In this document: piece after piece, positions 5,560 to 31,036 of the stretch
Layout of the letters: each line of letters begins with the position of its first letter
Position numbering within the stretch: position 1 is the first letter of the stretch
Source of the DNA: a virus
Lineage: Duplodnaviria; Caudoviricetes
DNA length: 64,000 nucleotides
Reading direction: 5' to 3' (one strand)
Virus record (IMG/VR): IMGVR_UViG_3300042465_007707
Coordinates: 177-64,176 of that record
Notes under the pieces: model-generated
Database searches by the model: none
What the model was told of the DNA's origin: nothing
Seen by the model: the letters and a program-made list of their open reading frames with translations, nothing else
Translations under genes and position numbers: made by a program

Positions 5560-5925
5560 TTATAAATCTACTCCTTCAACTCCGTTTTCATTTGATACAG
5601 CACTCTCAACCCCTACAGCCTTTTCCGTTTCAGTTGGTTTTGCTTCAGCTTGTGGTTGTGCAGGTTGCTCTTTGTTTGCTTTATGCTTATTCCAAATGTA
5701 ATATAAAGCAGAACCTACGATAATTAATCCAATTATAAATTTACCCTTTTTAGTGAAAAATGGAACTTCTTTTTTTATTGGCGCAACATCTTCAATATCT
5801 GTATCATCTATCGGAATATCAATATCTTTAACTACAGCATCTTTTGGATTTGAACCGTCGCTACTCATCATTCTTTCCATATATTGAGTGCCTGTTGGAT
5901 GACCGTTTATTGAAAAATTATTCAT
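5560..5925 (-). CDS. single-pass membrane protein
   Basis: Central FIIGLIIVGSALYYIW segment; MMSSDG motif variant. Confidence 0.75.
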   Translation of the reverse strand: MNNFSINGHPTGTQYMERMMSSDGSNPKDAVVKDIDIPIDDTDIEDVAPIKKEVPFFTKKGKFIIGLIIVGSALYYIWNKHKANKEQPAQPQAEAKPTETEKAVGVESAVSNENGVEGVDL

Positions 5926-6425
5926 TACACATTATTATTAATTCGGTAATTACGAATGTTTGCAATTGCATTTAAAACGCCTAAAGTAATAAGTCCGTAA
6001 CGAACATATTTGTTTTGAATTTCAGTTCTTGTTCCTGCATAAATTAAAGCTCCTGAAATGACAACTGTACTTACAACTCTAGCTCTTTGACTTTGCTTGT
6101 ACTCTGTAGTTGTAACATCTGTATTACTTCCAATTCCATCAGCATTTATAAACTGATTAATACCTTTTTTTTCACGAAGTTTTCGCTTCATTTTAACTGC
6201 ACGAATCATTTCTTTACTTCCATCTGTAGGAATTATCTTCCATTGAACAGTATCATTTTTATCAGTTGTTTTTTTATACGCAACTGAATCAACGTTTTTC
6301 TTCGCTAAAGAAATAGCCTCTTCACCGTCAACGAATGTTTTTGAAAACATAAAGTTTGGATCTTGACCAATCCAATCAACTTTATATACCGATACTGGCT
6401 TTTGTTTTTGTCTATTTAAACTCAT
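5925..6425 (-). CDS. membrane protein with two C-terminal hydrophobic segments
   Basis: FINADG motif; two hydrophobic helices at C-terminus. Confidence 0.75.
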   Translation of the reverse strand: MSLNRQKQKPVSVYKVDWIGQDPNFMFSKTFVDGEEAISLAKKNVDSVAYKKTTDKNDTVQWKIIPTDGSKEMIRAVKMKRKLREKKGINQFINADGIGSNTDVTTTEYKQSQRARVVSTVVISGALIYAGTRTEIQNKYVRYGLITLGVLNAIANIRNYRINNNV

Positions 6426-7096
6426 TAATTTTTGTATTTTAATTGTGCAAAATGCACAGGGTTTAACAATTTATTACTATCTGTCAATGGTACGTTTGTT
6501 TGTGCTACTGTATTGGATAAATTACCCCCTTGAGTAACTGCATAATTTTTACCATTTATTTTTTTAATGTCAACTACAATGTCACCATGAGATAAAACTC
6601 CACTATTTATTGTGTCTAAGCTAGGATTAGTTCCTGCTCTTCCTTTTACTAGAATATCACCAACTTCAACCGCTTTATTCTCACTAGATTTATAAGCCCA
6701 ATAAGATTTATTTAATTCATTTAATCTGTTCTTTTTTGCATCCACAACATATCCTGAATGTGTTGATTTTGGATTGAAATTTCTATAACCAGACTTATCC
6801 ACTAAATGACTAATATAAACAGCCGACCAAGGGTAACTTAAATGTGTACTCGTTTGCTGCATCTGTTTATTTGTAAAATCCATTCCTGCTAATTTCCAAT
6901 AACCAACTAAATCGCTACTCATTGAAGGATCAGTTTCTGTTTTACCTTTCCAACGTCTTAAATCTTTTTTAGCTAAAAATTGTAATTTAGTATGGTTAAT
7001 TATAAACCTTCTAAAAACATACGAAACAAGAAGAACGGAAGCAACCGAAACCGCAACCGTAATTAATTCTTTTTTATGTTCTTTTACAAAACTCAA
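6425..7096 (-). CDS. DUF2272 (CHAP-related) protein with N-terminal TM anchor
   Basis: YW, PWSAVYIS, GDILV, SHGDIVV, GGNLSNTV motifs; TTG start. Confidence 0.75.
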   Translation of the reverse strand: MSFVKEHKKELITVAVSVASVLLVSYVFRRFIINHTKLQFLAKKDLRRWKGKTETDPSMSSDLVGYWKLAGMDFTNKQMQQTSTHLSYPWSAVYISHLVDKSGYRNFNPKSTHSGYVVDAKKNRLNELNKSYWAYKSSENKAVEVGDILVKGRAGTNPSLDTINSGVLSHGDIVVDIKKINGKNYAVTQGGNLSNTVAQTNVPLTDSNKLLNPVHFAQLKYKN

Positions 7097-7680
7097 ACTA
7101 TTCTAAATGTTTTTAAAATTACGCCTAATATAAATCCGAAACAAATAAGTAAGATTCCAAAAAACCAATATTTTATTCGAGAAAAAATTCTACTGATTAA
7201 TGATCCATTGTTTATAGATTTTCCTTTTGATTCTTTTCTTAATGAAGTCCTGCTTGTTCTTCCAGACTGTTTGATAAATACCTTTTCATTTTTACCATCA
7301 ATTCTAGTTTTAAGTCTTTTTTGACGTGCTTCTAGTCTAATCTCCTGACGTGTTTTATGAATTATAATCGTATCGTATATTGTAATGAATTTAGTCTTTA
7401 AAATCGTATCAATTAATTGTTGTTTTATTTCGTACTGAACCTTAATAGAATCGTTTACATTGTAAGCAATAATAGTAATATATTTATCGTCCACGAAAAC
7501 AGTATCTAAACCTTTTGCCTCTCCTTTAACTTCTTTACTTTTTACTGTAACAGTATCAACTTTTTCTTTTAAAATTGTTGGATCTTTTTTTACAGCTTTT
7601 TCTATTAACTTTGAAGCCGAACAGCTATTGATTAAATAGAATATAATCGAAATTATAAGTATGTAAAGTATTTTTCTCAT
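7093..7680 (-). CDS. putative unimolecular spanin (lipoprotein with C-terminal TM)
   Basis: Signal peptide ending INSC; C-terminal hydrophobic helix; directly downstream of endolysin. Confidence 0.55.
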   Translation of the reverse strand: MRKILYILIISIIFYLINSCSASKLIEKAVKKDPTILKEKVDTVTVKSKEVKGEAKGLDTVFVDDKYITIIAYNVNDSIKVQYEIKQQLIDTILKTKFITIYDTIIIHKTRQEIRLEARQKRLKTRIDGKNEKVFIKQSGRTSRTSLRKESKGKSINNGSLISRIFSRIKYWFFGILLICFGFILGVILKTFRIV

Positions 7681-8117
7681 TTTTTTACGAATAAATCAGC
7701 TTCTAATTTTCTTCTTTTAACAAGCCCATTTAGTACTTTACCTCCACCTTTAATATAATTTGCAACCCACCAATCGTAAACGTGTTCAGATTTATTGTTT
7801 ATTAAAGAAAATAAAGTTTTTGAGCTTCCACAATTCCAACAAAAAGAAACCAAAGCATCAAATTGATTTTGATTTAATGTAACTTTGATATTGGTGTCAA
7901 CTGTTTTTTCGTATTTAGGCAATAGACTTAAAAGCAATTCTTCTGCTCTTGCTTGAGTTATAACATCTCCTAGTTTAAACTTGCTACCATCTGCTCTAGT
8001 CGTATTTCCATAACCAATAGTTATTGGTAAATTACCAGTCGCAGGATCAGGATACGCCTTTAAGCTGCAACCTTCAAATTTTTTAATTAAATCTATACCT
8101 GATTGACTTGTTTTCAT
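7677..8117 (-). CDS. endolysin, GH24 lysozyme
   Basis: IKKFEG, AYPD, TIGYG, NQNQFDALVSF, GLVKRRKLE; start moved to 8117 because TATCTTTG promoter lies at 8142-8149. Confidence 0.9.
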   Translation of the reverse strand: MKTSQSGIDLIKKFEGCSLKAYPDPATGNLPITIGYGNTTRADGSKFKLGDVITQARAEELLLSLLPKYEKTVDTNIKVTLNQNQFDALVSFCWNCGSSKTLFSLINNKSEHVYDWWVANYIKGGGKVLNGLVKRRKLEADLFVKK

Positions 8118-9574: not shown

Positions 9575-10816
9575 TTATGCGTAAATTACTTCTGTTGTAT
9601 CTATTGAGCAACTCCATTGTATATTAGTTGTTGCTGCTCCTGTAACATTTACTGTTAAACATCCAAAACTTGTATTTGCTGCTAATGTAGGAGTTCCCCA
9701 AGCTGGTGTATTTTGAATTAAATTAACATTTGACAGTAATAAAGTTGTACTCCCTGCGGTTGTACCTCTTTGAATTATACCATCAATATCCCAAGCACTT
9801 GTATTTGTTGAGCCACTTTGTCTACCTATAATTGTACCTTTGAATCTTACAGAACTATTATTAGCTAATGCTAACTGGTTATAAGATTGAGAAGTTGCAT
9901 CATCTTCAAAGAAAGCTACTAATATTTTTTCTGTTGCATTTGTCGTTCTTGTTCCAGATACAAATCTTGACGCTTGACACCCTCCTGATACAAATCCTTT
10001 CGTTGCAATCACTAACTTAGTCATTGTACTATTAGCCGACCCCCTTGCGCCAAATAAAGCTGAACCTTGACCGTTATTTGTATGAAGATAGCCAGCTGTA
10101 AAAGTATCATAAGCTGATACTGTATTTTGCCTTCCAGTAACTCCAGAATAGAAGCCACTTAATATATGTGATATGCCAACAGCAAAATTTCCACCTCCAC
10201 TTGAAGTATTATTTTGACCAAATAAAGCGTGATAATTTCCTGTAGTTGTATTGCTTTCACCTCCTATTGTAGAACCTCCTACACAAGTATTACCATAACC
10301 CCCTACAATAGTTCCATAACTTCCAGTTGTAATAGTATTACCATAACCCCCACCAATAGAGTTGTTATCTCCTGCTGTTATCTGGTTGCTTTGACCTCCT
10401 GCAATAACGGAATAGTTAGCTGTAGCTACATTTGTAGCATTGTTACGCTTCATTTGTAAGTCAACAACTCCAACGCCTCTTTTAGTTCCTCCTGTAGTTG
10501 TATCGTCTGGAATATTTGCTAAAATAGAACCTGTTCCCTTAGGTTTTATAACAAAATCTGCATTTGTTGTACTAGCTATAGCCGTTAAAGAATCTACGTT
10601 TACCGTTGCATTTGGTGAAGCTGTAGATTGTGCTTCTGTGAAATAAGTTAAACCACCTGCACCATACGCTACTTGTTGCCAAGATGTTGTGTACTGATAT
10701 GTGTTTCCATTAGATAAGTTTGTGTATCTATCACCAGCTATAGCTGAATGGGTAGGAACACCTGTACCTGTTGATACATTAGAACTTTGATCTGTTTTTG
10801 TATATATTACTCCCAT
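9575..10816 (-). CDS. spike/fibre (receptor-binding) protein
   Basis: G/S/T/N-rich; IxGGxxNxI beta-helix-type repeats; beta-rich C-terminal domain. Confidence 0.7.
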   Translation of the reverse strand: MGVIYTKTDQSSNVSTGTGVPTHSAIAGDRYTNLSNGNTYQYTTSWQQVAYGAGGLTYFTEAQSTASPNATVNVDSLTAIASTTNADFVIKPKGTGSILANIPDDTTTGGTKRGVGVVDLQMKRNNATNVATANYSVIAGGQSNQITAGDNNSIGGGYGNTITTGSYGTIVGGYGNTCVGGSTIGGESNTTTGNYHALFGQNNTSSGGGNFAVGISHILSGFYSGVTGRQNTVSAYDTFTAGYLHTNNGQGSALFGARGSANSTMTKLVIATKGFVSGGCQASRFVSGTRTTNATEKILVAFFEDDATSQSYNQLALANNSSVRFKGTIIGRQSGSTNTSAWDIDGIIQRGTTAGSTTLLLSNVNLIQNTPAWGTPTLAANTSFGCLTVNVTGAATTNIQWSCSIDTTEVIYA

Positions 10817-10818
10817 TA

Positions 10819-11142
10819 TTAATTATTTAAAAGTTCTAAACAAATAGCTAATACTTTGTCAACTGTTAACTTATCATTTTCATCTAATTCAGAAACAGTT
10901 AATACAATAGTTAATCCTGTTATAGGTTGTATGCCTAATTCATCATTATTAGTTGTATAACTACAATAATCAAATTCTTCAACCTGTGTTAGTAAAAATG
11001 TTTTTAAATCTAAAAAGGCTTGCATTTGAACTTCTGTTAATTCAGATACAAATCTAATTTCTGTAGGTTCTGACTCTTCAGATGGCACTATTATTAAAGC
11101 TCCATCTAATTGTCTATACATTATTTGTTTATACGTTTTCAT
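10819..11142 (-). CDS. small acidic partner/chaperone of spike protein
   Basis: Directly follows the 989-aa fibre gene. Confidence 0.55.
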   Translation of the reverse strand: MKTYKQIMYRQLDGALIIVPSEESEPTEIRFVSELTEVQMQAFLDLKTFLLTQVEEFDYCSYTTNNDELGIQPITGLTIVLTVSELDENDKLTVDKVLAICLELLNN

Positions 11143-11153
11143 TAATATATATT

Positions 11154-17392: not shown

Positions 17393-17878
17393 TTACCCCA
17401 TTAATTCTTTATAAGTAGCTGTGTATGTAAAAGGCACTTTTAAATTCAATCCAAATTTATTTACTTTTATAGTTCCTTTCATTGTTAGAACTACATTTTC
17501 AATATTCAATCCTGTTTGTAATAGAACACCTGTATTTTGAATCAATGTATTAGGATTAAAAGACATTCTCAAAGGAATAGAAGTACTTCCGTTTGGCTTT
17601 ATTGTTGTTGGAACTTGATTGAATATATTCGTTACTTTAACACCGTTTGCGTAAACATCAATATCAATACCATTAACACCTACTATCAATTCAGTTGGGT
17701 TATCAATAGTTAAAAAAAACTCTAAATCAATTTGTTTAGGAGTAAATTTTTTAATTACCGAACCTCTAATGCCGTAAATTAATTTACCACTCAATTCCGC
17801 TTGAAATTTAAGCCACAATCCAATTCCGATTAATAAGCTAATAACACCTGCACCGATTAATGTTTTTTTAATATCCAT
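17393..17878 (-). CDS. LEA_2/WHy-domain membrane protein
   Basis: N-terminal TM, then LTIDNPT...IDVYANG...IKPNGSTSIPL...MKGTIKV. Confidence 0.7.
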   Translation of the reverse strand: MDIKKTLIGAGVISLLIGIGLWLKFQAELSGKLIYGIRGSVIKKFTPKQIDLEFFLTIDNPTELIVGVNGIDIDVYANGVKVTNIFNQVPTTIKPNGSTSIPLRMSFNPNTLIQNTGVLLQTGLNIENVVLTMKGTIKVNKFGLNLKVPFTYTATYKELMG

Positions 17879-18240
17879 TACGCTTGTCTTGAAGATTTTA
17901 CTTTTTTAATTACTACAATCATTACTGTTATAGCCAATAAAGACCCTACAACGATTCCAGTTATCGCTAATGGTGACATTCCAGTAGACTGTTGTTGTTG
18001 ACTAGCTTTCAGTTGTATTGCGTTAGCTATTGCTAAATCAGAATCAGCTTGTTTACCTTTAGTAGCTACATTTCCTTTAATCATTTCTGTTAAAGCGTCC
18101 CACATTTTTCCGTCACCAAAAGCGTTATCGTACTCTGCATTTTCGTTAAAATATGCGTATGGATCAATTCCGTCTGCATTATTGAAATTTCCTTTTTTAA
18201 TCTCTAATATATCGCTATATTGTTCTGCGTTAAATCCCAT
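17878..18240 (-). CDS. virion membrane protein, C-terminal TM
   Basis: FNNADG and YDNAFG motifs; C-terminal hydrophobic helix followed by Lys residues. Confidence 0.75.
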   Translation of the reverse strand: MGFNAEQYSDILEIKKGNFNNADGIDPYAYFNENAEYDNAFGDGKMWDALTEMIKGNVATKGKQADSDLAIANAIQLKASQQQQSTGMSPLAITGIVVGSLLAITVMIVVIKKVKSSRQA

Positions 18241-18917
18241 TATTTCCTATTTTTATAAATTATAATTCCAATTACTGTTGCTAATAATATTCCACCGCCA
18301 ATTAAAGAGTACATTAATACATTACTACCGCTATCAGGAGTATCATCTAAAGTTGTAGGTTTAGATGGAGTAGGTGATACAGGTGCGTTTGGATCTGGAA
18401 CTAAAGGTGGATTTCCTTTAATTAAATCATCTAAAGTTGTAGGTTTAGATGGAGTAGGTGATACAGGTGCGTTTGGAACTGTAACAAAAGCTGGATTTCC
18501 GTTTTCACAAAACTCTCTTTTTTCACGACTAAAAGGATGAAGAAATAAACACTTTGTACTGCTACTGCTGGTTGAACTTATCTTTATTCCTTTTTCACAA
18601 TTACTTCTTCTAATTTTACTAAAAGGATGAAGGATTGCACATTTTTTATTAACTGAAGATTTAACTTTTGAAGGTCTGTTTTTTTCACAAGCTGCCCTTC
18701 TTACTTTGTTGAAAGGATGAAGTATTAAGCAACCTCCTGCGTAAGAATAAGCATCGTCACCTCCTGCGTAAGAATACGGATCGTCACCTCCTAAATAAGA
18801 ATACGGATCGTCACCCCCTGCATAAGAATATGGATCAAATCCATCTACGTTGTTAAAGCTATCTACTGAATCATTAACAGATAAAACTTCGCTGTATTGT
18901 TGTATGTTAAATCCCAT
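18240..18917 (-). CDS. repeat-rich virion membrane protein, C-terminal TM
   Basis: N-terminus paralogous to 17878..18240; YSYAGG-type repeats x4, C-x-x-LHPF..C x3, Pro-rich duplication. Confidence 0.8.
   Translation of the reverse strand: MGFNIQQYSEVLSVNDSVDSFNNVDGFDPYSYAGGDDPYSYLGGDDPYSYAGGDDAYSYAGGCLILHPFNKVRRAACEKNRPSKVKSSVNKKCAILHPFSKIRRSNCEKGIKISSTSSSSTKCLFLHPFSREKREFCENGNPAFVTVPNAPVSPTPSKPTTLDDLIKGNPPLVPDPNAPVSPTPSKPTTLDDTPDSGSNVLMYSLIGGGILLATVIGIIIYKNRK
18342..18477. repeat. 52-bp perfect direct repeat (coding)
   Basis: 18342-18393 equals 18426-18477; encodes PNAPVSPTPSKPTTLDD. Confidence 0.85.
18733..18840. repeat. 4 x 27-bp tandem repeat (coding, DDPYSYAGG-like)
   Basis: Contiguous cctcctgcgtaagaatacggatcgtca-like units. 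Confidence 0.85.
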
Positions 18918-21062: not shown

Positions 21063-21770
21063 TTAATCTTTTTTATTCAATAAAATAACGCCTAAAACCA
21101 TTACTATTAGTATTGAAGATCCTACAACAATATATTTAGTATTGCTTGATGTTTTAGCAGATAATAATTGTACTTGCTTATCAGCTTCAGTTTTTCTAAG
21201 TAAGGCATCAGCAACGCCCTGAGAAGCTTTTAATACAGCTTCAGGAGTAGTTCCTTTTGTAGCTAAAGACGCTCTAGCCACAGCTTCAGCATCAGTTTTA
21301 ATTTTTAAATTTTTAGCTGCAGCTACTCTTTCTACTTCAGCAATATCTTCATCCGTTCTATCAGCCAAACCTTTATTAGCTACTGCAAGTTTCCCTTCAT
21401 AATCTAAAATAAGACTATTATTTGTAGCAATACTTGAATCCAAAGCGGTTATTAAGCCAGACCATTTTACTTTTCCAGCTTGTTTATCAGCTTTAGCGTC
21501 TTGACAAACTCCACAAGGATTCATGGCATTATATTTATCATAAGTAGCTTGTGCAATAACACGATTTTTCGCCAAAGTTTCCTTTGTTTTGTAAAACTCT
21601 GTTAATTTAGCTTTTATAGCGTCAATTTGACTTCTCCAATCATCTTGATCTCCTGTAACAAAATTAGACCAGCCATCTCCATCAGCATAACTCATACCTT
21701 CATCCCAAACTTGAGCTTTAGTTGAAGAATATTTCATTCTTTCTAATTCTTTATCTATATCGTAACCCAT
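21063..21770 (-). CDS. coiled-coil virion membrane protein, C-terminal TM
   Basis: MSYADG and WSNFVTG motifs, Ala-rich helices, CxxC, C-terminal TM. Confidence 0.75.
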   Translation of the reverse strand: MGYDIDKELERMKYSSTKAQVWDEGMSYADGDGWSNFVTGDQDDWRSQIDAIKAKLTEFYKTKETLAKNRVIAQATYDKYNAMNPCGVCQDAKADKQAGKVKWSGLITALDSSIATNNSLILDYEGKLAVANKGLADRTDEDIAEVERVAAAKNLKIKTDAEAVARASLATKGTTPEAVLKASQGVADALLRKTEADKQVQLLSAKTSSNTKYIVVGSSILIVMVLGVILLNKKD

Positions 21771-22428: not shown

Positions 22429-22501
22429 TATTTTTTATATTACATTAAAAAAAAGCTAACATTTCTATTAGCTTTTTTGTTTGTTTTTTTTTAATTAAAG
22501 A

Positions 22502-22750
22502 TTAAAATCTTCTATTAGCTTTTTTGTATTGCTCATCAATACCAGCACAACATCCTCTTTTAGTTCCTGCACAAAATCTAGTTATACCATCTGCACAAGT
22601 TACGTTTGATCCTGTAGCTTTTGACATTTCATCTCCTTTAGATACAGGCGTCATAATAGACGTTTCTTTTTGTTTTTTATCGTATCTGTAGTATAAATAC
22701 CCAGCCAACGCTAAAACTCCTAATCCCATTAACATTTTTTTGTTTTCCAT
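22502..22750 (-). CDS. membrane protein, N-terminal TM, Cys-rich C-terminus
   Basis: LMGLGVLALAGYLYY; MSKATG motif variant; 4 Cys. Confidence 0.75.
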   Translation of the reverse strand: MENKKMLMGLGVLALAGYLYYRYDKKQKETSIMTPVSKGDEMSKATGSNVTCADGITRFCAGTKRGCCAGIDEQYKKANRRF

Positions 22751-22787
22751 CTTTGTTTTTATTTATTGTTTATTATTTAATTTACTT

Positions 22788-22949: not shown

Positions 22950-22965
22950 TATATTTATTTTTAAA

Positions 22966-23715
22966 TTACATACAAATTCTATATTTCAACTCTTCAAAAT
23001 TATCAATGAAGGCTTTAATATATTGGTAACGTTCTTTATTTTGTTCCGAAGGAGTTCCTTTGAATACATTTAAAAAACTCATGTGAGCTTCTATTACAGG
23101 ATAACCTAATCCTAAATAAATTTTCAAAGCATTTAGATCAGCTTCAATCTCATCTTTTTGAACTACGTTTAAATTGAAATGAGAAAATTCATGTAGAATA
23201 ATCGCCATTCTCATCGGCACAGTATAAGAAGTGAAATGTTTTTTAGAAATTTCCATTCTTCCAGTTGTGTTACTTATTCTAGCAGGAGTTTTAATTTCTC
23301 TTCCTTGATGCTTTATGACATTCATATAGTCAATTCTATATTTTTTGTCATTTGAAAAATAAGTACCTTCGCTTAGTACTGAAGCTTGTTCGCAAAACTC
23401 TTGAGCAAACTTTACAAAACTAGCGACTTTTGGCGAATTAAAACAATTACTAAATTGATTCAATTTTTTCTTTTCAACCGAAACAACTCTAACATCATTA
23501 CCACCACCAACTCTTAATGTTACCGAATCACAATTCTGAGGCATCCTAACTTCAAATTCACTTATCCCATCTACTGTTTTTACTCTATCTGTATAGAATG
23601 TTTTAGGTCTATTAGAATTAAAAACAGCAAGTCTTATTTTTTGAGGACGAGATACACTAATCTTTATAACAAGATTTGTAGGTTCTCCCTTACATGGTAT
23701 CTGAATATCCTTCAT
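22966..23715 (-). CDS. zincin metallopeptidase, candidate virion maturation protease
   Basis: IILHEFSH (HExxH) followed by DEIEADLNA (ExxAD); beta-rich N-terminal domain; sits among structural genes. Confidence 0.7.
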   Translation of the reverse strand: MKDIQIPCKGEPTNLVIKISVSRPQKIRLAVFNSNRPKTFYTDRVKTVDGISEFEVRMPQNCDSVTLRVGGGNDVRVVSVEKKKLNQFSNCFNSPKVASFVKFAQEFCEQASVLSEGTYFSNDKKYRIDYMNVIKHQGREIKTPARISNTTGRMEISKKHFTSYTVPMRMAIILHEFSHFNLNVVQKDEIEADLNALKIYLGLGYPVIEAHMSFLNVFKGTPSEQNKERYQYIKAFIDNFEELKYRICM

Positions 23716-23719
23716 AAAA

Positions 23720-24193
23720 TTATTTTTTCTTCATTAATGAGTAAACTCCAAATCCAATAGCAACCACTCCAACAGCAACAGCTATTTTTGTTATAGGTGT
23801 CATTCTCTCCTTTTCAGGCAAGACGTATTGATTTGTGCTTTTGTTTGATAATCCTGAAAAAATTCCTAAACCTGTAGTAGCTAAACCTAAAGCTTTACTT
23901 ATTATACTTTTTCTTTTTAAAAAAGCATCTATATCTTTAGAATATCCTTTACCTACAGCTTTCCAATAAGACTTAAGCTCATCTTCCTTGTATTTTGTAT
24001 CTTCAGAACCATCTAACTGAGCGTAACAATGCTCTTTTTTAGATGAATTTTCAACTCTTTGACAGATAGTTTTTATATCAGCTTCACCTATTATGTTTGA
24101 ATTATTTTCTTCAGCTATAATAGAATGAATAATTGCTTCATCTTGACTTTCTACTCCTGCATCAATATAAGGTTGGTATAATATAGTTCCCAT
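23720..24193 (-). CDS. virion membrane protein, C-terminal TM
   Basis: IAVAVGVVAIGFGVYSLM-KKK. Confidence 0.75.
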   Translation of the reverse strand: MGTILYQPYIDAGVESQDEAIIHSIIAEENNSNIIGEADIKTICQRVENSSKKEHCYAQLDGSEDTKYKEDELKSYWKAVGKGYSKDIDAFLKRKSIISKALGLATTGLGIFSGLSNKSTNQYVLPEKERMTPITKIAVAVGVVAIGFGVYSLMKKK

Positions 24194-24570
24194 TATTTTT
24201 TATTTTTAGATTGGTAAATAACCACAGCTGCAATACCGATAACAACAACTCCAATTCCAATCCATACATTTCTTGAAATAGTTTTTTGTACAGTTACACA
24301 TACGCCTTGAGCATCTTTTTCGTAACCATCAGAACATGGAGTATCTTGAATCAATGGAGTTCCAGAGTTTATTCCAAATTTAGAATGTAAAATAGAAGAT
24401 GTAGCGTTCAATGTTTGATCTATCCATCCACTACCCACAGCTTTATTCATAAAGTCTTTAAACGGAGTGCTAGTGTCACCTGTAGCATTTACATATTCTT
24501 TGTATGCTTGGTTCATCGTAAGGTCTTGTTCAGCCTTTTTCTGAAGTGCCAATTGGATATTGCTATTCAT
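24193..24570 (-). CDS. virion membrane protein, C-terminal TM
   Basis: C-x9-C mini-domain, then VWIGIGVVVIGIAAVVIY. Confidence 0.75.
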   Translation of the reverse strand: MNSNIQLALQKKAEQDLTMNQAYKEYVNATGDTSTPFKDFMNKAVGSGWIDQTLNATSSILHSKFGINSGTPLIQDTPCSDGYEKDAQGVCVTVQKTISRNVWIGIGVVVIGIAAVVIYQSKNKK

Positions 24571-24572
24571 AA

Positions 24573-25166: not shown

Positions 25167-25168
25167 AA

Positions 25169-25636
25169 TTATATTTTTTTAACTATTAATAATGCTATAG
25201 CAATTACTATTAATTGCCTAGCTGTAAATCCTAAGTATTTTTTTTCTGGATTGTTATTAATATAATCCAAATCGTGTTGAATTTGATTTCCTAAAGTATT
25301 AGCTTCGTCTTTTACAATTGTAGAATCAATAAGAACTACTTCTTCAGAAATAGGTTTTGTAAATTCCAAAGGAATTAACCACATTCCGCTACTATCTTCA
25401 TTTCTAACCATGAATCCTTTACCTTGTCCGTATTGAACAAAATTACCATTTCTCATTTTTCTTTGAAGTTTAGCCTCAACAGGTTCGCCCATAAAAGAAC
25501 CATCTTTCATAAATGTTTTAACAGTACCTTCTTTAGAAGTATTTTCAGTTAATATATCTAAATTAAAATCTTTAGATACTGAAAAAGGACGAATCCCTTT
25601 GCCATCTAATTTCTTATATTGAACTTTTGCAATCAT
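25169..25636 (-). CDS. membrane protein, C-terminal TM
   Basis: LIVIAIALLIV-KK at C-terminus. Confidence 0.7.
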   Translation of the reverse strand: MIAKVQYKKLDGKGIRPFSVSKDFNLDILTENTSKEGTVKTFMKDGSFMGEPVEAKLQRKMRNGNFVQYGQGKGFMVRNEDSSGMWLIPLEFTKPISEEVVLIDSTIVKDEANTLGNQIQHDLDYINNNPEKKYLGFTARQLIVIAIALLIVKKI

Positions 25637-26091
25637 TTTTTATCTTCATTAACGTAATTACTATACATATTCCCACCTACAAATCCTAATACAGAGCCTA
25701 TAGTAGAAAACAATAGCTTGTTCTTTGTTTTAGCTAAAGCGTAGGCAAAACCTACAATTAAACCAACAACAGCACCTTGAACAGCAACTTTGCTTTTAAC
25801 TTTTAAAATATTTGCCATGTTGGATTTTATTCCTTCTGGCATACTTATTTTTTTTGACTTATCTTCTATTACTTCAGCATATTCAATATCTTCATAACCA
25901 CTTGCATTTTGCATCATTGGTTTAAGATTTGACTTCGGCAAAACAAAGCCTTGGTCGGTTCTGAACATTTTAGCATCAATTAAATTACCCGATACTCTTT
26001 GACCAACTTTAAATTCCTTGTAAATAACATTACTTCCTTCCTTTTTAGGAGAACGAAAGCCTTTTGTTACTTCACAATTAATCACGCCCAT
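25633..26091 (-). CDS. membrane protein with Gly-rich hydrophobic hairpin
   Basis: MQNASG motif; GAVVGLIVGFAYAL ... TIGSVLGFVGG. Confidence 0.75.
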   Translation of the reverse strand: MGVINCEVTKGFRSPKKEGSNVIYKEFKVGQRVSGNLIDAKMFRTDQGFVLPKSNLKPMMQNASGYEDIEYAEVIEDKSKKISMPEGIKSNMANILKVKSKVAVQGAVVGLIVGFAYALAKTKNKLLFSTIGSVLGFVGGNMYSNYVNEDKK

Positions 26092-26092: not shown

Positions 26093-26614
26093 TTACTTTT
26101 GTTTTAAAGCTATAAAAGCAACAACACCACCTAAAATAAGAACACCTGTAATAAGTACAATTGGAGTCCAATTAGTTTTAGGGCTTAACTCTTGTAATAA
26201 AGCTAATTTCAACTGATTTCTATCAGCCTCTTGTTGAGCTTTTCTATCTACATTACCTGATATAGCTCCTGCTATTCCTCCAAAAATTCCTCCCATCGCA
26301 CCTAATATTGAATTTGCACTTTTCTCACCTGCATCTCCGTCTGCATTATTGTATTGAGAAAGTATAGATTTACTTATCTCACCTCTAAACGCTGCGTTAT
26401 CATAAAGAGCATCAACTACTTTATGAATCAAATCTCTTTTAGATATAGATCGTGAAGTAGCAACATTAGATTTATTTAAATTTTCAATCAATACTTGTGG
26501 TTTGCTATCTAGCAACTTATGAATTTCACTAAGCAAAATATCTTTAGTCATTTCATTATCTTTAGATAATATAGCTCCGTTAAAATTACTCATTAAATCT
26601 CCTCCGTATATCAT
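26093..26614 (-). CDS. virion membrane protein, C-terminal TM
   Basis: MSNFNG and YNNADG motifs; glycine-zipper segment; C-terminal TM. Confidence 0.75.
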   Translation of the reverse strand: MIYGGDLMSNFNGAILSKDNEMTKDILLSEIHKLLDSKPQVLIENLNKSNVATSRSISKRDLIHKVVDALYDNAAFRGEISKSILSQYNNADGDAGEKSANSILGAMGGIFGGIAGAISGNVDRKAQQEADRNQLKLALLQELSPKTNWTPIVLITGVLILGGVVAFIALKQK

Positions 26615-26625: not shown

Positions 26626-27036
26626 TTACTTCTTGAAAACGATAGCTAAACCAATAACTAAAATTCCACCTATGATTAACAATTTATGATCTCCGCCTTT
26701 TTCATTTCCATTAGCATTTGAAACGTTATTTTTCAAATCTGAAATTTCCTGCTTAATCATTTGTCCGTCCATGTTCCAGAAATTAGAATTAGAATTAGAA
26801 GATTTATCTTCATGTTCTTTTTTTATCTTTTCTTTAAACATATCTATCTGTTGTTGGAATAAGCCTAAATCTGGGTGAATCATAGCTACTTTATTCAAAG
26901 CATCTTGACCATTTCTAGCTACAACGCTAGCTAATTGTTGACTTAATCCTTTTTTATCAGCACGAATACCATAACTTTCCACGATTTCTCTAGCTCCGTT
27001 CGGATTGTTGATAGCTGTATATTGATATATATTCAT
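26626..27036 (-). CDS. virion membrane protein, C-terminal TM
   Basis: FWNMDG and VSNANG motifs; LLIIGGILVIGLAIVF-KK. Confidence 0.75.
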   Translation of the reverse strand: MNIYQYTAINNPNGAREIVESYGIRADKKGLSQQLASVVARNGQDALNKVAMIHPDLGLFQQQIDMFKEKIKKEHEDKSSNSNSNFWNMDGQMIKQEISDLKNNVSNANGNEKGGDHKLLIIGGILVIGLAIVFKK

Positions 27037-27119: not shown

Positions 27120-27782
27120 TTATCCTACAAGTCCTCTATTAGAAGGCATTTGTAATTGAGATAAATTAGGTTTAGAGTATGCTTTAGCAACTGTTTGACC
27201 ACTCAATGAACGAGCAACATCAATTTGTTCTTTAGGATATAAAGAAACGATTAAAGTAGCTGAACCTAAGATAGTAGTAGCGATAGAAGTAAAAGAGTTA
27301 ACTGTGAACTCAGTTCTAACTATAGAAACACCAGCTTGATTTTGCATTGGGTCTAATCTTGGGTTGATTGGCAACTCAACTTTTCTACCATTAGCTTCAC
27401 GATTTGTAATCGTTAAAGTTTTGAATGGTTGGTTTGCGTTAGCAGACTGTAAGTACATTTGACCTACTTTAAAAGGAGAAGACTTGATGTCTTGCAAGAA
27501 CTCAGCGTAAGTAATAGTACCGTCCATAGTAATAGTAATTGCAGCAGCATTACCAAATGAAACAGTAGTAGTATTACCAGCTAAATTGGCATTTAAAAAT
27601 ACAACATTTGCAACGTCAGCCGTAGTTGAGTTAGAAATATTGATTACGAATGGTAAAGAACTTAAAGCAGTTCCTTCTGATCCACCGTCAGCATAGTTGT
27701 AATCATCTGTGAAGTTGTTCCAACCATCATAGTTTGAGAAGTTCTCGTTAGCGAAGTTTTCCGCTGTGTCAAAATAATTCAT
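27120..27782 (-). CDS. candidate major capsid protein (single jelly-roll-like)
   Basis: Soluble beta-strand-rich 220-aa protein near the head of the structural operon; own terminator; frequent AAC/TTC/GCT codons; N-terminal extension with FSNYDG/YNYADG; paralog at 30056. Confidence 0.6.
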   Translation of the reverse strand: MNYFDTAENFANENFSNYDGWNNFTDDYNYADGGSEGTALSSLPFVINISNSTTADVANVVFLNANLAGNTTTVSFGNAAAITITMDGTITYAEFLQDIKSSPFKVGQMYLQSANANQPFKTLTITNREANGRKVELPINPRLDPMQNQAGVSIVRTEFTVNSFTSIATTILGSATLIVSLYPKEQIDVARSLSGQTVAKAYSKPNLSQLQMPSNRGLVG

Positions 27783-28171: not shown

Positions 28172-28888
28172 ATGGAAGAAAAACAGAACAATTTACCAAA
28201 AGTATTAATTTGCGCCCCTCAACATGAGTCAAAAAACTATTGTTGGGAAACTTGGTTTAACAACGTGAATAACTTTACATATCCAAAAGATAGGCTTGAA
28301 ATTTTTATTGCAGATAATTCACCAACAAAAGACAATTACACTAAATTGAGGTTTCAAGGAATTACAGCAGTACATACTCCTGTAAATTCAAAAGGAATAT
28401 TATTTACAATTAATGATTCACATGAAGCTTGCCGTCAATATGCAATAGATAATAAATTCGATTTTATTCTACATTTAGAAACGGATATAATACCTCCTAT
28501 TGACGTTATTGAAAGATTATTAAACAATAAGAAGAAAGTTTGTTGTGGTATTTATGATTTGTTCTACGGAACTGAAAGACGACCAATGATTCAATTGGAT
28601 GAACCGTATGACCGTAATATTCGAGAATATAGAAATCCTGAATTTGTTACTGTTGAAGAACCTTTATTTTTTGATGGTACAGTAAAACAAGTTTATCATG
28701 CAGGTCTTGGTTGTGCCTTAATTCATAGTTCGGTATTTAGCTTGTTCCCATTCAGAGTTATTGAAGGAACGGATATTCATACCGACACTTGGTTTGCAAA
28801 TGATTGCTATTTATTAAATATAAACATATTCGCTGATACAAACGTTCAATGTCAACATTTGAATAGTACTTGGTTGGGTAAAAAATAA
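28172..28888 (+). CDS. glycosyltransferase, GT-A/family 2
   Basis: VLICAP, IFIADNS, FILHLETD (DxD-like), GLGCALI, D.WF motifs. Confidence 0.8.
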   Translation: MEEKQNNLPKVLICAPQHESKNYCWETWFNNVNNFTYPKDRLEIFIADNSPTKDNYTKLRFQGITAVHTPVNSKGILFTINDSHEACRQYAIDNKFDFILHLETDIIPPIDVIERLLNNKKKVCCGIYDLFYGTERRPMIQLDEPYDRNIREYRNPEFVTVEEPLFFDGTVKQVYHAGLGCALIHSSVFSLFPFRVIEGTDIHTDTWFANDCYLLNINIFADTNVQCQHLNSTWLGKK

Positions 28889-28907
28889 TAATTTAAAACA
28901 AAATAAA

Positions 28908-29756
28908 ATGACGGAAAAATTAACAAAGCTATTATATAGAAAACAAATAGCAGAATCAAACTTAGAAAAATACGCTAATGGATTAGCAATATATTCAAAT
29001 CTTTGTGACCAAATAGATTCAACTTTAAAAACTAGTGATTTAAGCTTTTTAGAACGTGCCAGATTAGAAGCTGAATTAGATAAGTACAATTGGGAAGCTA
29101 GAATATTCGCCACTAACTACAAAACAACTCAAAGAGATTACCAACATAATATACTACCTATAATTGATACGGAAGCAACTGAAGAGGAAAAAAAATCAAT
29201 TGAGTTCAAAGATTTAAGTGAGGAAGCAAAAGAATTAGCTGAAAATGAAATATTCGGGAAAGCGGTAAAAGAACCTGCGAATATCGAACACGTTGAAATG
29301 ATTGAAAGTATTAAAAAATATTTAGCGATACTTAAAAATACAAGCAAGGAATTAACTAAAAAACTTGAATCAGACAAGATTATTTCAAAACTTGAAATTT
29401 GTAAACTTCAAAAAGAATTATATGATACGGACGTTCATATTAAATGTTTAGAAAAAAGATTAAATAACCGTACAGATTACTATGTTAATCAGTTCCTGCC
29501 TGTTTATACAGTTGAATTAGCTGAAGCAAAAGAAAAACTTGAATCCTACTACGAAAGAGGGGTTAAACTAGCTGAATCTGGTATTGACGTTCAACTTCAA
29601 TTTGTGATTCAAAAATATGAAGAGCATAAAAATAGCGAAGAGAGAATATGGCTATACTATACAGCTTTAAAATCTCGTGTAAATTCTTTAATTGAAGAAA
29701 TTAAAAGTGATCCGATTAAGTATAAGGATTTACAACATCTAACAAGTCCTGTATAA
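28908..29756 (+). CDS. helical/coiled-coil hypothetical protein
   Basis: Long ORF, heptad-like, apparent internal duplication. Confidence 0.75.
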   Translation: MTEKLTKLLYRKQIAESNLEKYANGLAIYSNLCDQIDSTLKTSDLSFLERARLEAELDKYNWEARIFATNYKTTQRDYQHNILPIIDTEATEEEKKSIEFKDLSEEAKELAENEIFGKAVKEPANIEHVEMIESIKKYLAILKNTSKELTKKLESDKIISKLEICKLQKELYDTDVHIKCLEKRLNNRTDYYVNQFLPVYTVELAEAKEKLESYYERGVKLAESGIDVQLQFVIQKYEEHKNSEERIWLYYTALKSRVNSLIEEIKSDPIKYKDLQHLTSPV

Positions 29757-30025
29757 TGAAGCTGCCTTACGAAAGCAAGCGTATTGCTGTTTTAGTTAAT
29801 TTATTAGAGCAAAAAGAAAATGACTTAAAAATAGCGAACGAAGTTACTTTGCAATTCATAAAAGATAAAGTTGATTTAAATACTTTAGAACTCCAGATAA
29901 CAAAAAGAAATTTGCTTTTTATTGATATTTCAGGTATTAATTCACAGATAAAAAACCTTCAAAGAGGAAAATATCAGTACGGTTTAGAGATTCAAGAAAG
30001 GGACGTAAAGAAATGGACAGATTGA
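29756..30025 (+). CDS. hypothetical protein
   Basis: TAATG-coupled ORF. Confidence 0.7.
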   Translation: MKLPYESKRIAVLVNLLEQKENDLKIANEVTLQFIKDKVDLNTLELQITKRNLLFIDISGINSQIKNLQRGKYQYGLEIQERDVKKWTD

Positions 30026-30029
30026 AATT

Positions 30030-30057
30030 AAGGGAGTTTTTTTAACTCCCTTTTTTT
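30030..30057. terminator. terminator between converging genes
   Basis: AAGGGAGTT/AACTCCCTT stem plus T run. Confidence 0.75.
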
Positions 30058-31036
30058 ATAATTCTTTAAAATCTAATCCGTCAAATGAATTGTAAACATC
30101 TTCATCTGTAACATCGCTAAAATCTACTTTACTTACTACTTTTTCTTTAATTGAAATTTTTTTAGAAGTAGTTTCTCCAACTAAATCAAATAAAGGGTTT
30201 ATTGACTCTTGCATAATTATTATTTTTTCTATTGTTTTTGGAGCTATTATTTCTTCAAATTTTTCTTGATTTATTTCCGACATATCAATTCTACTATAAT
30301 AAAACCACATTCTAACAGATTCAAGTGCTTTCATATTATAGTTTATAGCATTTATAGGGCTTGGAATAAATTTCGTATCAATGCCTTCAATTGCAAGTTG
30401 ATTTTGCATAGGATCAACTCTAGGTCTATTAAAATCAACTGAAACTACTCCTGTAGCTAACTTTGTTGTTTTCTTCAACCGCTGCATAGCTTGAACCTGA
30501 GTATTAGCATACACATTAACCGTATTAATTATATACGGTTGAGATTGAAGTTCATTAAGCAACTCCGAATAAGATATATTTGTTCCTGTTGATACAACTA
30601 CTGTTGTTCCTGATATAGCTATCCATGGATTTCCAGCAGGATAAGATACATTAGGCGTTAAAGACGAAAATATAGTTGGAACAAATGTTGGATTTATAAT
30701 CCTAATTATTAAAGTATAATTTGGAGAAATTCCATTTGGAGCATAAGAAAAAAAAGCGTATCCTAAACCTGTGAATAAAAACGCATTAAGGTCAGCTATT
30801 AACAAGTCAATTGTAGCTAATAAAGGAGAGGTGAAATAATTATTAGGAACGCCCCCTAAAGTGTAGTCTAATTTAAATTGATTAACTAAGGTAAAAGGAA
30901 AATTAATTCGATAATAAGTCGTTGTGTTGCTCGAAGAACTACCACTTAATCCGCCCGAAAATAAATTTATCTCACTATCGGCATTGGCAATGTTAGTTAA
31001 TTCTAATGATATTAATTCGCTTTCTGGATTCTTCAT
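30056..31036 (-). CDS. capsid-protein paralog with insertion (candidate penton/minor capsid protein)
   Basis: ISYSELLNELQSQPY and RPRVDPMQNQ align with ITYAEFLQDIKSSPF and NPRLDPMQNQ of 27120..27782; start moved to MKNPES (promoter at 31042-31049). Confidence 0.6.
   Translation of the reverse strand: MKNPESELISLELTNIANADSEINLFSGGLSGSSSSNTTTYYRINFPFTLVNQFKLDYTLGGVPNNYFTSPLLATIDLLIADLNAFLFTGLGYAFFSYAPNGISPNYTLIIRIINPTFVPTIFSSLTPNVSYPAGNPWIAISGTTVVVSTGTNISYSELLNELQSQPYIINTVNVYANTQVQAMQRLKKTTKLATGVVSVDFNRPRVDPMQNQLAIEGIDTKFIPSPINAINYNMKALESVRMWFYYSRIDMSEINQEKFEEIIAPKTIEKIIIMQESINPLFDLVGETTSKKISIKEKVVSKVDFSDVTDEDVYNSFDGLDFKEL

What the first reader, a model, noticed from the sequence alone, without database searches (positions are those of the whole stretch)
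5560..31036. Shared [FYWM]-[SN]-[NY]-[AF]-[DG]-G motif across capsid and membrane proteins, with a metallopeptidase in the same operon
Seen in at least 10 mostly unrelated proteins: capsid candidate (FSNYDG, YNYADG), 26626 (FWNMDG, VSNANG), 26093 (MSNFNG, YNNADG), 25633 (MQNASG), 22502 (MSKATG), 21063 (MSYADG), 18240 (FNNVDG, YSYAGG x3, YSYLGG), 17878 (FNNADG, YDNAFG), 5925 (FINADG) and 30056 (YNSFDG). It lies in N-terminal extensions or linkers. Known: adenovirus, poxvirus and ASFV mature by cleavage at short Gly-ending motifs using cysteine proteases. Inference: either a maturation cleavage code read by the HExxH peptidase at 22966..23715 (or the papain-like 4259..4804), or a docking motif that tethers membrane proteins to the capsid lattice.
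Basis: partly seen in the sequence, partly recalled or inferred. Interest (0 to 1): 0.82.

Follow-up and report, generated by a model that had tools for sequence, protein, structure and literature searches.

The report
Shared hook motif in virion proteins
An uncultured, apparently tailless bacterial virus carries the same six-residue peptide on the loose ends of its jelly-roll shell proteins and on the cytoplasm-facing parts of many unrelated tail-anchored membrane proteins, which looks like a shared address or docking tag for building the particle.

Summary
All listed peptides are in the sequence.

- **Enrichment:** aromatic-x-[NY]-x-D-G gives 8 sites in 7 proteins against 0.86 in shuffles (0 of 2000 reach it).
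- **Location:** all 15 PSSM sites lie in the virion module and none in the other 11,691 aa.
- **Relatives:** a PSSM built from the window alone is enriched in relatives, 26 vs 2.5 and 12 vs 2.5.
- **Conservation:** it is a conserved island in variable linkers.
- **Topology:** it occurs in 79 of 297 proteins with only a C-terminal TM against 1 of 116 with only an N-terminal TM. It also sits in the disordered N-arm of the small jelly-roll protein and near the C-terminus of its larger paralogue.
- **Peptidase:** the HExxH protein is a conserved zincin-like peptidase, present in 22 of 23 relatives. Nothing links it to the motif.

I read the motif as a docking or sorting hook (0.5) rather than a cleavage site (0.2), because copies sit at extreme termini and in tandem. 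This is inference; no binding or processing was shown. Earlier scan notes describe similar tailless membrane-virus modules on other DNA; none shown mentions this motif.

The parts
27120..27782 (-). Small jelly-roll capsid candidate (220 aa). The disordered N-arm (residues 11-40) carries two motif copies.
   Evidence: AF2 model with a jelly-roll core, pLDDT 71, arm below 50. Fold hits to viral SJR capsid and penton proteins at Z 5-6. 95 homologues.
27723..27740 (-). Motif FSNYDG (residues 15-20 of the capsid candidate)
   Evidence: G20 is invariant and the block is conserved in 29 aligned homologues.
27684..27701 (-). Motif YNYADG (residues 28-33 of the capsid candidate)
30056..31036 (-). Larger capsid paralogue. 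The likely start is the ATG at 31036, not the TTG at 31102.
   Evidence: BLASTP against the small capsid candidate: 30% identity over 94 aa, E 1e-8.
30077..30094 (-). Motif-like YNSFDG, 6 residues from the C-terminus of the larger paralogue
   Evidence: 11 of 18 large paralogues end in a similar element. It scores below the PSSM threshold here.
26626..27036 (-). Tail-anchored protein (136 aa, TM 116-134) with FWNMDG at 26764-26781
   Evidence: The motif is a conserved island in 52 unique homologues.
26093..26614 (-). Tail-anchored protein (173 aa, TM 152-170) with YNNADG at 26336-26353
   Evidence: The motif is a conserved island in 44 unique homologues.
24193..24570 (-).
   Evidence: 13 of 44 family members have a site in the same column.
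21063..21770 (-). Tail-anchored protein (235 aa, TM 213-231) with MSYADG at 21678-21695
18240..18917 (-). Tail-anchored protein (225 aa) with five tandem copies between 18732 and 18857 (FNNVDG, YSYAGG, YSYLGG, YSYAGG, YSYAGG)
17878..18240 (-). Tail-anchored paralogue of 18240 (120 aa) with FNNADG at 18169-18186 and YDNAFG at 18115-18132
22502..22750 (-). Small protein with an N-terminal TM and MSKATG. Homologues carry M[SY]NASG.
   Evidence: 4 of 5 members keep a like peptide. This is the one N-terminal-TM family with the motif.
5925..6425 (-). FINADG at 6135-6152, not conserved in homologues
   Evidence: 1 of 5 members, inside an insertion.
22966..23715 (-). Zincin-like metallopeptidase: N-terminal CBM/GOLD-like beta-sandwich (1-87) plus a catalytic domain. 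HEFSH lies at 23179-23193 and E-I-E-A-D at 23137-23151.
   Evidence: H175, E176, H179, E189, A192 and D193 are invariant in 19 sequences. AF2 pLDDT 92.7. BepA (M48) at Z 7.6 and 7.4 over residues 102-242.
47587..48486 (-). P-loop ATPase, candidate FtsK/HerA-type packaging ATPase. It lies within 10 kb of the capsid gene in relatives.
   Evidence: 17 of 19 family members match Pfam DUF87/HerA, best E 2.6e-7. Family 6 was recovered in the flanks of the capsid gene.
4259..4804 (-). Permuted papain-like (C92-like) ORF in the lysis cassette. Probably not the reader of the motif.
   Evidence: Pfam PF05708, E 1e-3, below the cut-off. Its neighbours are a glucosaminidase and a DUF2272 protein.

Best explanation
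The motif [FYW]-x-[N/Y]-A-[D/G/S/N]-G is a short linear docking or sorting hook. It probably forms an aromatic anchor followed by a tight turn. It sits on flexible ends of the two jelly-roll shell proteins: the N-arm of the small one and the C-tail of the large one. It also sits on the cytoplasm-facing N-terminal parts of many unrelated tail-anchored membrane proteins. I propose that one common receptor reads it, most simply the underside of a neighbouring jelly-roll capsomer, or else a shared assembly factor. The shell protein's own arm would use it to lock subunits together. The membrane proteins would copy it to be gathered under the growing shell and tethered to it, and so sorted into the virion's membrane. 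What is shown: enrichment, conservation, restriction to the virion module, topology and lineage co-variation. What is inferred: that the virion has an internal membrane, that the jelly-roll proteins form the shell, the identity of the receptor, and binding itself.
For: (1) Enrichment over composition: 8 vs 0.86 sites, 0 of 2000 shuffles. All 15 PSSM sites fall in the virion module and none elsewhere; 1 hit in 99,613 wrong-frame residues. (2) A PSSM built from the window's 8 sites alone is enriched in relatives with the capsid family excluded: 26 vs 2.5 sites in 15 families (mid group) and 12 vs 2.5 in 6 families (far group). (3) It is a conserved island in hypervariable linkers: 0.62 vs 0.27 and 0.55 vs 0.27 majority fraction. 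(4) Topology: 79 of 297 C-terminal-TM-only proteins against 1 of 116 N-terminal-TM-only proteins, Fisher p 7e-12. All 99 sites in tail-anchored proteins lie N-terminal of the TM, the side that faces the cytoplasm where shell proteins are. (5) Placement fits a hook: 16 of 99 sites lie within the first 15 residues; 11 of 18 large capsid paralogues end in a motif-like element 6-9 residues from the C-terminus; the capsid N-arm is predicted disordered. (6) Multivalency: 5 tandem copies in 18240, 3 in an L054 protein, and 16 of 79 motif-bearing tail-anchored proteins have 2 or more sites. (7) Position 2 is Leu in the far lineage in both capsid arms (4 of 11) and other proteins (8 of 15), but rarely in the near and mid groups (3 of 42, 2 of 49, 0 of 45). 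This fits one co-evolving reader. (8) Precedent (passages seen, PMC6414509): in HCIV-1/HHIV-2 the N-terminal residues of the small single-barrel capsid protein VP7 run under the base of the adjacent VP4 jelly-roll, with Asn and Gly contacts, and single-TM membrane proteins act as docking rafts.
Against: No binding was shown and no receptor was identified. The shell role of the jelly-roll proteins rests on fold hits of only Z 5-6 and on context; the BFVD hits are generic jelly-roll or C1q-like. The internal membrane is inferred from about 25 single-TM proteins and from the absence of terminase, portal and HK97 hits among the ORFs scanned. A conserved zincin peptidase sits in the same module in 22 of 23 relatives. 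A motif ending in an invariant Gly is also what a cleavage site could look like. The topology and co-variation fit a protease reader equally well. TM calls come from a simple hydropathy window, and ORFs from a longest-ORF rule, not from a gene caller. The far and near groups differ by one phylogenetic split, so the co-variation is effectively a single event.
Confidence: 0.5

Rival explanations
1. Maturation cleavage code. The conserved zincin-like peptidase (22966-23715) cuts at or next to the motif's Gly. This would trim the capsid N-arm and release or activate domains of the membrane proteins during assembly, as adenovirus, poxvirus and ASFV proteases do at Gly-containing sites.
For: The peptidase is real. 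HExxH and E-x-x-A-D are invariant in 19 sequences. The model is confident (pLDDT 92.7), and the only catalytic-domain matches are to M48 BepA at Z 7.6 and 7.4. It lies inside the virion module and is present in 22 of 23 relatives with enough flank. The motif ends in a nearly invariant Gly (169 of 188 unique instances) and lies in disordered arms and linkers on the cytoplasmic side, which a soluble protease could reach. The peptidase's N-terminal beta-sandwich could be a substrate-recognition domain.
Against: Cutting would remove only 6-15 residues in many cases: 16 of 99 sites lie within the first 15 aa, and the C-terminal copies lie 6-9 aa from the end. Tandem arrays would yield 9-residue scraps. 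In the 26626 and 26093 families a cut would detach the folded domain from its anchor. No preference is seen at the residue after the Gly. No Pfam peptidase family is matched. A CBM-like domain fused to a peptidase fits a host-envelope enzyme equally well.
Confidence: 0.2
2. Intrinsic membrane-surface or cation-binding turn. The aromatic residue with Asn/Asp and Gly forms an interfacial turn that binds lipid head groups or a bridging cation. Both capsid arms and membrane proteins would then stick to the outer face of the viral membrane with no protein reader.
For: The x-N-x-D-G part resembles positions 3-6 of D-x-D-x-D-G type calcium loops (recalled, not tested). Both classes of carrier would lie next to the membrane. 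The flanks are acidic or polar.
Against: The motif is often far from the TM: median 69 residues, up to 173. Position 1 is aromatic and not acidic. Plain N-x-D-G is not enriched. The lineage-specific S-to-L shift at position 2 is easier to explain with a protein pocket.
Confidence: 0.1
3. Modification sequon. The Asn/Tyr/Ser at position 3 is modified in the cytoplasm, for example glycosylated by the conserved GT-A-like protein encoded between the two capsid genes (28172-28888).
For: Position 3 is N, Y, S or T in 188 of 188 unique instances, all residues that can be modified. A conserved gene with a weak glycosyltransferase-like hit (Anp1, E 1e-4, below the cut-off) lies between the capsid paralogues and co-occurs with them (family 3, 49 members; conserved E-T-D).
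Against: The glycosyltransferase assignment is weak: a profile search of solved structures found nothing relevant. The invariant Gly and the aromatic residue are not typical of sequons known to me (recalled). No test was possible.
Confidence: 0.07
4. No function: a by-product of Asn/Tyr/Gly-rich low-complexity linkers, or of shared ancestry of the carriers.
For: The genome is AT-rich (about 30% GC) and the linkers are rich in N, S, G and D. 17878/18240 and the two capsid proteins are paralogues. Two listed sites are not conserved.
Against: Shuffles within each protein keep composition and never reach the observed count. Wrong frames give 1 hit in 99,613 residues. More than 25 BLAST-unrelated families carry it. 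Motif columns are about twice as conserved as their flanks. The topology bias has p 7e-12.
Confidence: 0.03

Closest known systems
N-terminal arm docking of VP7 under VP4 in HCIV-1/HHIV-2 (tailless, internal-membrane viruses with two single-beta-barrel capsid proteins)
   Same: There are two small jelly-roll capsid paralogues. A short N-terminal stretch of the small one, with Asn and Gly contacts, binds the base of the neighbouring jelly-roll. Single-TM membrane proteins and membrane-proximal proteins position the capsomers (passages seen in PMC6414509).
   Different: No shared motif between capsid and membrane proteins is described in the passages I read. Those genomes are far smaller than 64 kb and the hosts are haloarchaea (recalled). 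I did not test sequence relatedness to these viruses. The capsid fold match here is only Z 5-6 to other jelly-roll proteins.
Consensus cleavage sites of the adenovirus protease, (M/I/L)XGX-G, and of the poxvirus I7L and ASFV pS273R proteases (recalled knowledge)
   Same: A short Gly-containing peptide recurs in several unrelated virion proteins of a jelly-roll-capsid virus, with a virus-encoded protease in the genome.
   Different: Those enzymes are cysteine proteases of the adenain/Ulp1 type. Here the candidate is a zincin-like metallopeptidase, and no processing is shown. Here the motif starts with an aromatic residue, occurs at extreme termini and in tandem, and is tied to tail-anchored topology.
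Particle-targeting peptides: the T4 capsid targeting sequence and encapsulin cargo-loading peptides (recalled knowledge)
   Same: A short, portable peptide on unrelated proteins directs them to a protein shell. It usually sits at a terminus in a disordered stretch.
   Different: Those signals load soluble cargo into HK97-fold shells. Here the carriers are membrane proteins and the shell proteins themselves, in a jelly-roll system. The T4 signal is then cut off; whether this one is cut is unknown.
Salisaeta icosahedral phage 1 (SSIP-1), PRD1 and PM2 (cultured tailless membrane phages)
   Same: They share the general plan inferred here: no tail genes, many small membrane proteins and a small ATPase.
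   Different: There are 0 motif hits in each of the three genomes and no profile hit for the capsid, peptidase, ATPase or GT-like families (best E 0.075). No tblastn hit for the three core proteins was found in 50,697 phage records.
M48-family gluzincins (BepA, HtpX, Ste24), for the peptidase only
   Same: HExxH plus a downstream Glu in an E-x-x-A-D block (the motif label is recalled). The catalytic-domain fold match is to BepA at Z 7.6 with 121 residues aligned.
   Different: There is no Pfam M48 hit. The Glu block lies only 10 residues after HExxH. The protein has no TM segments and carries an N-terminal CBM/GOLD-like beta-sandwich.

Membership tests
Zincin/gluzincin metallopeptidase (M48-like), for ORF 22966-23715 | HExxH zinc-binding and catalytic motif | tested here: met
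   H175, E176 and H179 are invariant in 19 aligned homologues, including the most distant locus L083.
Zincin/gluzincin metallopeptidase (M48-like), for ORF 22966-23715 | Third zinc ligand: a Glu downstream of HExxH | tested here: inconclusive
   E189, A192 and D193 are invariant, and the block looks like the gluzincin E-x-x-A-D (label recalled). The spacing is unusually short, and no metal site was modelled or checked.
Zincin/gluzincin metallopeptidase (M48-like), for ORF 22966-23715 | Zincin catalytic fold | tested here: inconclusive
   The only catalytic-domain matches are BepA 6sar at Z 7.6 (rmsd 4.1, 121 aligned) and 6ait at Z 7.4. Z below 8 may reflect only a common arrangement. The domain was not folded or searched alone.
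Zincin/gluzincin metallopeptidase (M48-like), for ORF 22966-23715 | Match to a curated peptidase family model | tested here: not met
   No Pfam family at E <= 0.1 and no PHROG at E <= 0.01. The profile search of PDB sequences gave only an irrelevant EF-hand protein.
Viral maturation cleavage sites (adenain-type) | A virion-associated protease encoded by the virus | tested here: inconclusive
   No adenain or Ulp1-like protease was seen among the ORFs scanned. A zincin-like peptidase is present in the module.
Viral maturation cleavage sites (adenain-type) | Proteins are actually cut at the motif | not testable with these tools
   This needs proteomics of particles or a co-expression assay.
Short linear docking or targeting peptide (SLiM) | Short conserved block within disordered or variable sequence, in otherwise unrelated proteins | tested here: met
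   More than 25 BLAST-unrelated families carry it. Motif columns are about twice as conserved as their flanks. The capsid arm has pLDDT below 50.
Short linear docking or targeting peptide (SLiM) | Binds a defined pocket on a partner | not tested
   The one co-fold job went to the peptidase with the capsid arm and gave no verdict. Capsomer with peptide was not run.
Tailless internal-membrane viruses with two single-jelly-roll capsid proteins (Halopanivirales-like) | Two vertical single-jelly-roll capsid proteins | tested here: inconclusive
   The two ORFs are paralogues. The small one folds as a jelly-roll, with viral capsid and penton hits at Z 5-6. Orientation in a shell cannot be known.
Tailless internal-membrane viruses with two single-jelly-roll capsid proteins (Halopanivirales-like) | FtsK/HerA-type packaging ATPase | tested here: inconclusive
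   17 of 19 family members hit DUF87/HerA, best E 2.6e-7, while the window's own protein gives E 1.7e-3, below the cut-off. The profile search of PDB gave only P-loop-level ClpB hits.
Tailless internal-membrane viruses with two single-jelly-roll capsid proteins (Halopanivirales-like) | Lipid membrane under the shell | not testable with these tools
   Inferred from about 25 single-TM proteins in the module.

The most novel reading that the evidence does not exclude
The motif is the sorting and tethering code of a large, undescribed lineage of tailless membrane phages. The shell protein locks to its neighbour with an N-arm hook. Dozens of unrelated tail-anchored proteins copy that hook, so that the growing shell itself picks which host-membrane-inserted proteins (and hence which membrane patch) enter the particle. 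This would be the first defined sequence signal for loading proteins into the internal membrane of a virus.
Probability: 0.35. Interest if true: 0.85.

Novelty: new variant of a known kind. Interest (0 to 1): 0.68.

Why it matters
How tailless, lipid-containing phages choose which membrane proteins and which patch of host membrane end up inside the shell is, to my knowledge, still unresolved for PRD1-type viruses. My two full-text searches found no paper describing a sorting signal or tail-anchored proteins in this setting. Here a six-residue peptide marks both the shell proteins' loose ends and the capsid-facing side of more than 25 unrelated tail-anchored families, across relatives down to 35-41% capsid identity from marine, lake and brine metagenomes. 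That gives a concrete, mutable handle. Peptide pull-downs, point mutants and co-expression could test whether shell and membrane are coupled by one code, or whether a zincin peptidase matures the particle at these sites. Either result would be new for bacterial jelly-roll viruses. The motif is also a practical marker for finding virion membrane proteins in this uncultured lineage.

Tried and rejected
**Virus identity**
- Megablast of 12 kb of the module against 50,697 phage records gave no match.
- tblastn of the capsid candidate, the ATPase and the peptidase against the same records gave no match at E <= 0.01.
- Pfam and PHROGs scans of 38 ORFs found no terminase, portal or HK97 capsid. Not every ORF of the window was scanned.

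**Capsid fold**
- Foldseek against PDB found nothing at E <= 0.001.
- VIA wide gave only Z 5-6 jelly-roll hits.
- BFVD gave generic jelly-roll or C1q-like hits.
- The protein atlas gave no hit at 0.9 or above.

**Other profile searches**
- Profile searches of PDB sequences with the peptidase, ATPase and GT-like alignments gave nothing useful.
- Viral contigs held only one relative, L002.
- Genome contigs held only a weak match, L083, on a contig labelled as a Pacearchaeota MAG. I draw no host conclusion from it.

**Co-fold**
- The peptidase (A2) with Zn and the capsid N-arm (A1, residues 1-44) gave no verdict: score 0.01 against a mark of 0.32, and the controls were not run. I count this neither for nor against binding.

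**Rejected readings**
- A DNA-level repeat: codons vary and wrong frames are empty.
- Composition: shuffles never reach the observed count.
- The papain-like ORF as reader: it has only a weak hit and sits in a lysis context.

**Literature and rows dropped**
- Literature searches were seen as listings only. For PMC6414509 I read the passages. Supplements were not opened.
- One search left out L050-L052 and L083, and placed the L069 fragment in the 'distant' set.
- One search left out L069 and L083.
- considered only loci long enough.

Full report
**What the window is**

The window is almost all of a 64,176-bp IMG/VR virus record that CheckV rates complete. It is about 30% GC, with nearly all genes on the minus strand. 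Pfam and PHROGs scans of 38 ORFs found no terminase, portal or HK97 capsid. What is there instead:
- Two paralogous small beta proteins, 27120-27782 and 30056-31036 (30% identity over 94 aa, E 1e-8).
- About 25 proteins with a single TM segment at one end.
- Fibre-like proteins.
- A lysis cassette: glucosaminidase and DUF2272, plus lysozyme-like and holin-like ORFs read.
- A P-loop ATPase whose family matches HerA/DUF87 in 17 of 19 members, best E 2.6e-7.

The small paralogue folds as a single jelly-roll with a disordered N-arm (pLDDT 71 overall, below 50 for residues 11-40). Its best structural matches are viral jelly-roll capsid and penton proteins at Z 5-6, including PR772 P31, phiCjT23 and PM2. 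That level is suggestive and not decisive. Neither this protein nor the ATPase or the peptidase has a tblastn match in 50,697 deposited phage genomes. I therefore accept, as an inference, that this is a large tailless virus with an internal membrane. Earlier notes of this scan reached the same reading for this genome and for similar modules on other DNA. I treated those notes as leads only.

**The observation**

The regex as printed fits only 7 sites in 5 proteins, but even that is far above the shuffle expectation of 0.03. The pattern aromatic-x-[NY]-x-D-G gives 8 sites in 7 proteins against 0.86 expected (0 of 2000 shuffles). N-x-D-G and DG alone are not enriched.

An iterated PSSM gives the consensus below.

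| Position | Residues |
|---|---|
| 1 | Y/F/W/M |
| 2 | S/N/D/L |
| 3 | N/Y/S |
| 4 | A (137 of 188) |
| 5 | D/G/S/N |
| 6 | G (169 of 188) |

In the window the PSSM finds 15 sites. All lie in 5560-31102 (8,212 aa) and none in the other 11,691 aa. The five wrong frames give 1 hit in 99,613 residues, and synonymous codons differ between copies. The signal is therefore at the protein level and is not compositional.

**Relatives**

The small capsid protein has 95 homologues in a 5.8-billion-protein set, all from metagenomes. I fetched 80 metagenome loci, one IMG/VR contig and one weakly related MAG contig. In 29 aligned capsid homologues the N-arm block [FY]-S-N-Y-D-G is conserved, with its Gly invariant. 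It persists as F-N-S-M-[DN]-G at about 40% identity, and the second copy is also broadly kept.

A PSSM built only from the window's eight sites is enriched in the relatives even when the capsid family is excluded:
- Mid-distance group: 26 vs 2.5 sites, in 15 families.
- Far group: 12 vs 2.5 sites, in 6 families.

In the 26626 and 26093 families the motif is an island in otherwise unalignable linkers. The majority fraction is 0.62 vs 0.27 and 0.55 vs 0.27. Against this, MQNASG in 25633 and FINADG in 5925 are not conserved, and MSNFNG is kept only in close relatives.

**The new fact: topology**

Of 1122 non-redundant ORF products from all loci, the motif is distributed as follows.

| Protein class | With motif |
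|---|---|
| Only TM is C-terminal | 79 of 297 |
| Only TM is N-terminal | 1 of 116 |
| No TM | 95 of 648 (67 of these are capsid-family proteins) |

- The C-terminal versus N-terminal contrast has Fisher p 7e-12.
- All 99 sites in tail-anchored proteins lie N-terminal of the TM, which is the cytoplasmic side.
- More than 25 BLAST-unrelated families carry the motif.
- 16 of the 99 sites lie within the first 15 residues.
- 16 of 79 carriers have two or more copies.
- 18240 has five tandem copies.
- 11 of 18 large capsid paralogues end in a motif-like element 6-9 residues from the C-terminus.
- In the far lineage, position 2 is Leu both in capsid arms (4 of 11) and in other proteins (8 of 15), whereas Leu is rare in the near and mid lineages. 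This fits one reader that co-evolves with all its clients, but phylogenetically it is a single split.

**The peptidase**

ORF 22966-23715 is a core gene of the lineage, present in 22 of 23 loci with at least 8 kb downstream of the capsid gene. H175-E-x-x-H179 and E189-x-x-A-D193 are invariant in 19 sequences. The model is confident (pLDDT 92.7). It shows an N-terminal CBM/GOLD-like beta-sandwich (Z up to 10.4) and a catalytic domain whose only structural matches are two entries of the M48 peptidase BepA (Z 7.6 and 7.4). No curated family model matches it. I call it a zincin-like, probably gluzincin, peptidase.

Nothing ties it to the motif. The one co-fold I could run (peptidase, Zn and capsid arm) returned no verdict, and I do not use it either way. 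The papain-like 4259-4804 has a sub-threshold C92 hit and sits in the lysis cassette.

**Mechanism**

I commit to a docking or sorting hook (0.5). The shell proteins and the tail-anchored proteins expose the same peptide on the same side of the membrane. The copies sit at extreme termini or in tandem, as binding hooks do. A solved analogue also exists: in HCIV-1/HHIV-2 the N-terminus of the small single-barrel capsid protein runs under the base of the adjacent one, with Asn and Gly contacts, and single-TM proteins act as docking rafts (PMC6414509, passages).

The shown steps are enrichment, conservation, module restriction, topology and co-variation. The inferred steps are the receptor, the binding, the membrane and the shell role.

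The rivals are:
- Cleavage by the zincin (0.2). It is kept alive by the conserved peptidase and the invariant Gly, and weakened by the terminal and tandem copies.
- A lipid- or cation-binding turn (0.1).
- A modification sequon read by the weakly GT-like gene between the capsid genes (0.07).
- No function (0.03).

**Comparison and novelty**

Portable particle-targeting peptides (the T4 capsid targeting sequence, encapsulin cargo peptides) and Gly-containing maturation sites (adenovirus, poxvirus, ASFV) are known kinds; these are recalled and were not tested here. What differs here is threefold:
- The carriers are tail-anchored membrane proteins together with the shell proteins themselves.
- The system is a jelly-roll virus.
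- The candidate protease is a metallopeptidase.

The motif is absent from SSIP-1, PRD1 and PM2 (0 hits each), and none of them has a detectable homologue of the four core families. Full-text searches for tail-anchored proteins or sorting signals in internal-membrane phages and for a metalloprotease maturation system in jelly-roll phages found no description of such a motif. Subscription journals and supplements were not covered. I rate it a new variant of a known kind, in a lineage without a cultured member.

**Limits**
- ORFs came from a longest-ORF rule and TM segments from a hydropathy window.
- Only two structures and one co-fold could be run.
- The PSSM used was trained on the same loci. 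The independent test is.

Noticed in passing
window 9575-26091, minus strand: Nine of 39 minus-strand genes in the virion module start Met-Gly (9575, 11154, 17878, 18240, 19795, 20135, 21063, 23720, 25633), against 0 of 55 genes elsewhere (Fisher p 2e-4). This may mark an N-terminal Gly that is exposed or modified after Met removal.
   Followed up: partly
window 30056-31102: The TTG-started ORF probably begins at the ATG at 31036 (MKNPESE...). The 'N-terminal TM' my hydropathy scan gave it is then an artefact of the upstream extension.
   Followed up: no
L023:4540-7059, L027:4571-7057, L033:3856-6135, L048:4162-6579: In several relatives the large capsid paralogue is 759-839 aa, against 326-348 aa here. 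It still ends in the motif-like peptide. The extra mass may be a tower or spike domain.
   Followed up: no
window 28172-29756, plus strand: Two plus-strand genes between the capsid paralogues are conserved in relatives (families 3 and 2, 49 members each). One has a weak GT-A/Anp1-like hit (E 1e-4) and an invariant E-T-D. The other looks like a coiled-coil protein, judged by eye. They are possible assembly or modification factors.
   Followed up: partly
window 47587-50380: In relatives the ATPase and its three upstream neighbours (families 6, 8, 9, 13) lie within 10 kb of the capsid gene. In this genome they lie about 20 kb away, beyond a block of DarB-like helicase, methyltransferase, ParB-like and polyvalent proteins at 31.8-45.3 kb. 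That block looks like an insertion into the core module.
   Followed up: no
L083 (contig titled as a Pacearchaeota MAG): The most distant related locus has the peptidase (L083:16066-16857), a weak capsid match and a tail-anchored protein with YLNADG at residue 28. The contig may be a mis-binned virus or a sign of a much wider host range.
   Followed up: no
window 31331-33884: Two unrelated proteins end in GWGLK(F/N)L(S)NW. An earlier first-reader note flagged these as possible targeting tails. This is a second shared peptide, distinct from the motif studied here.
   Followed up: no
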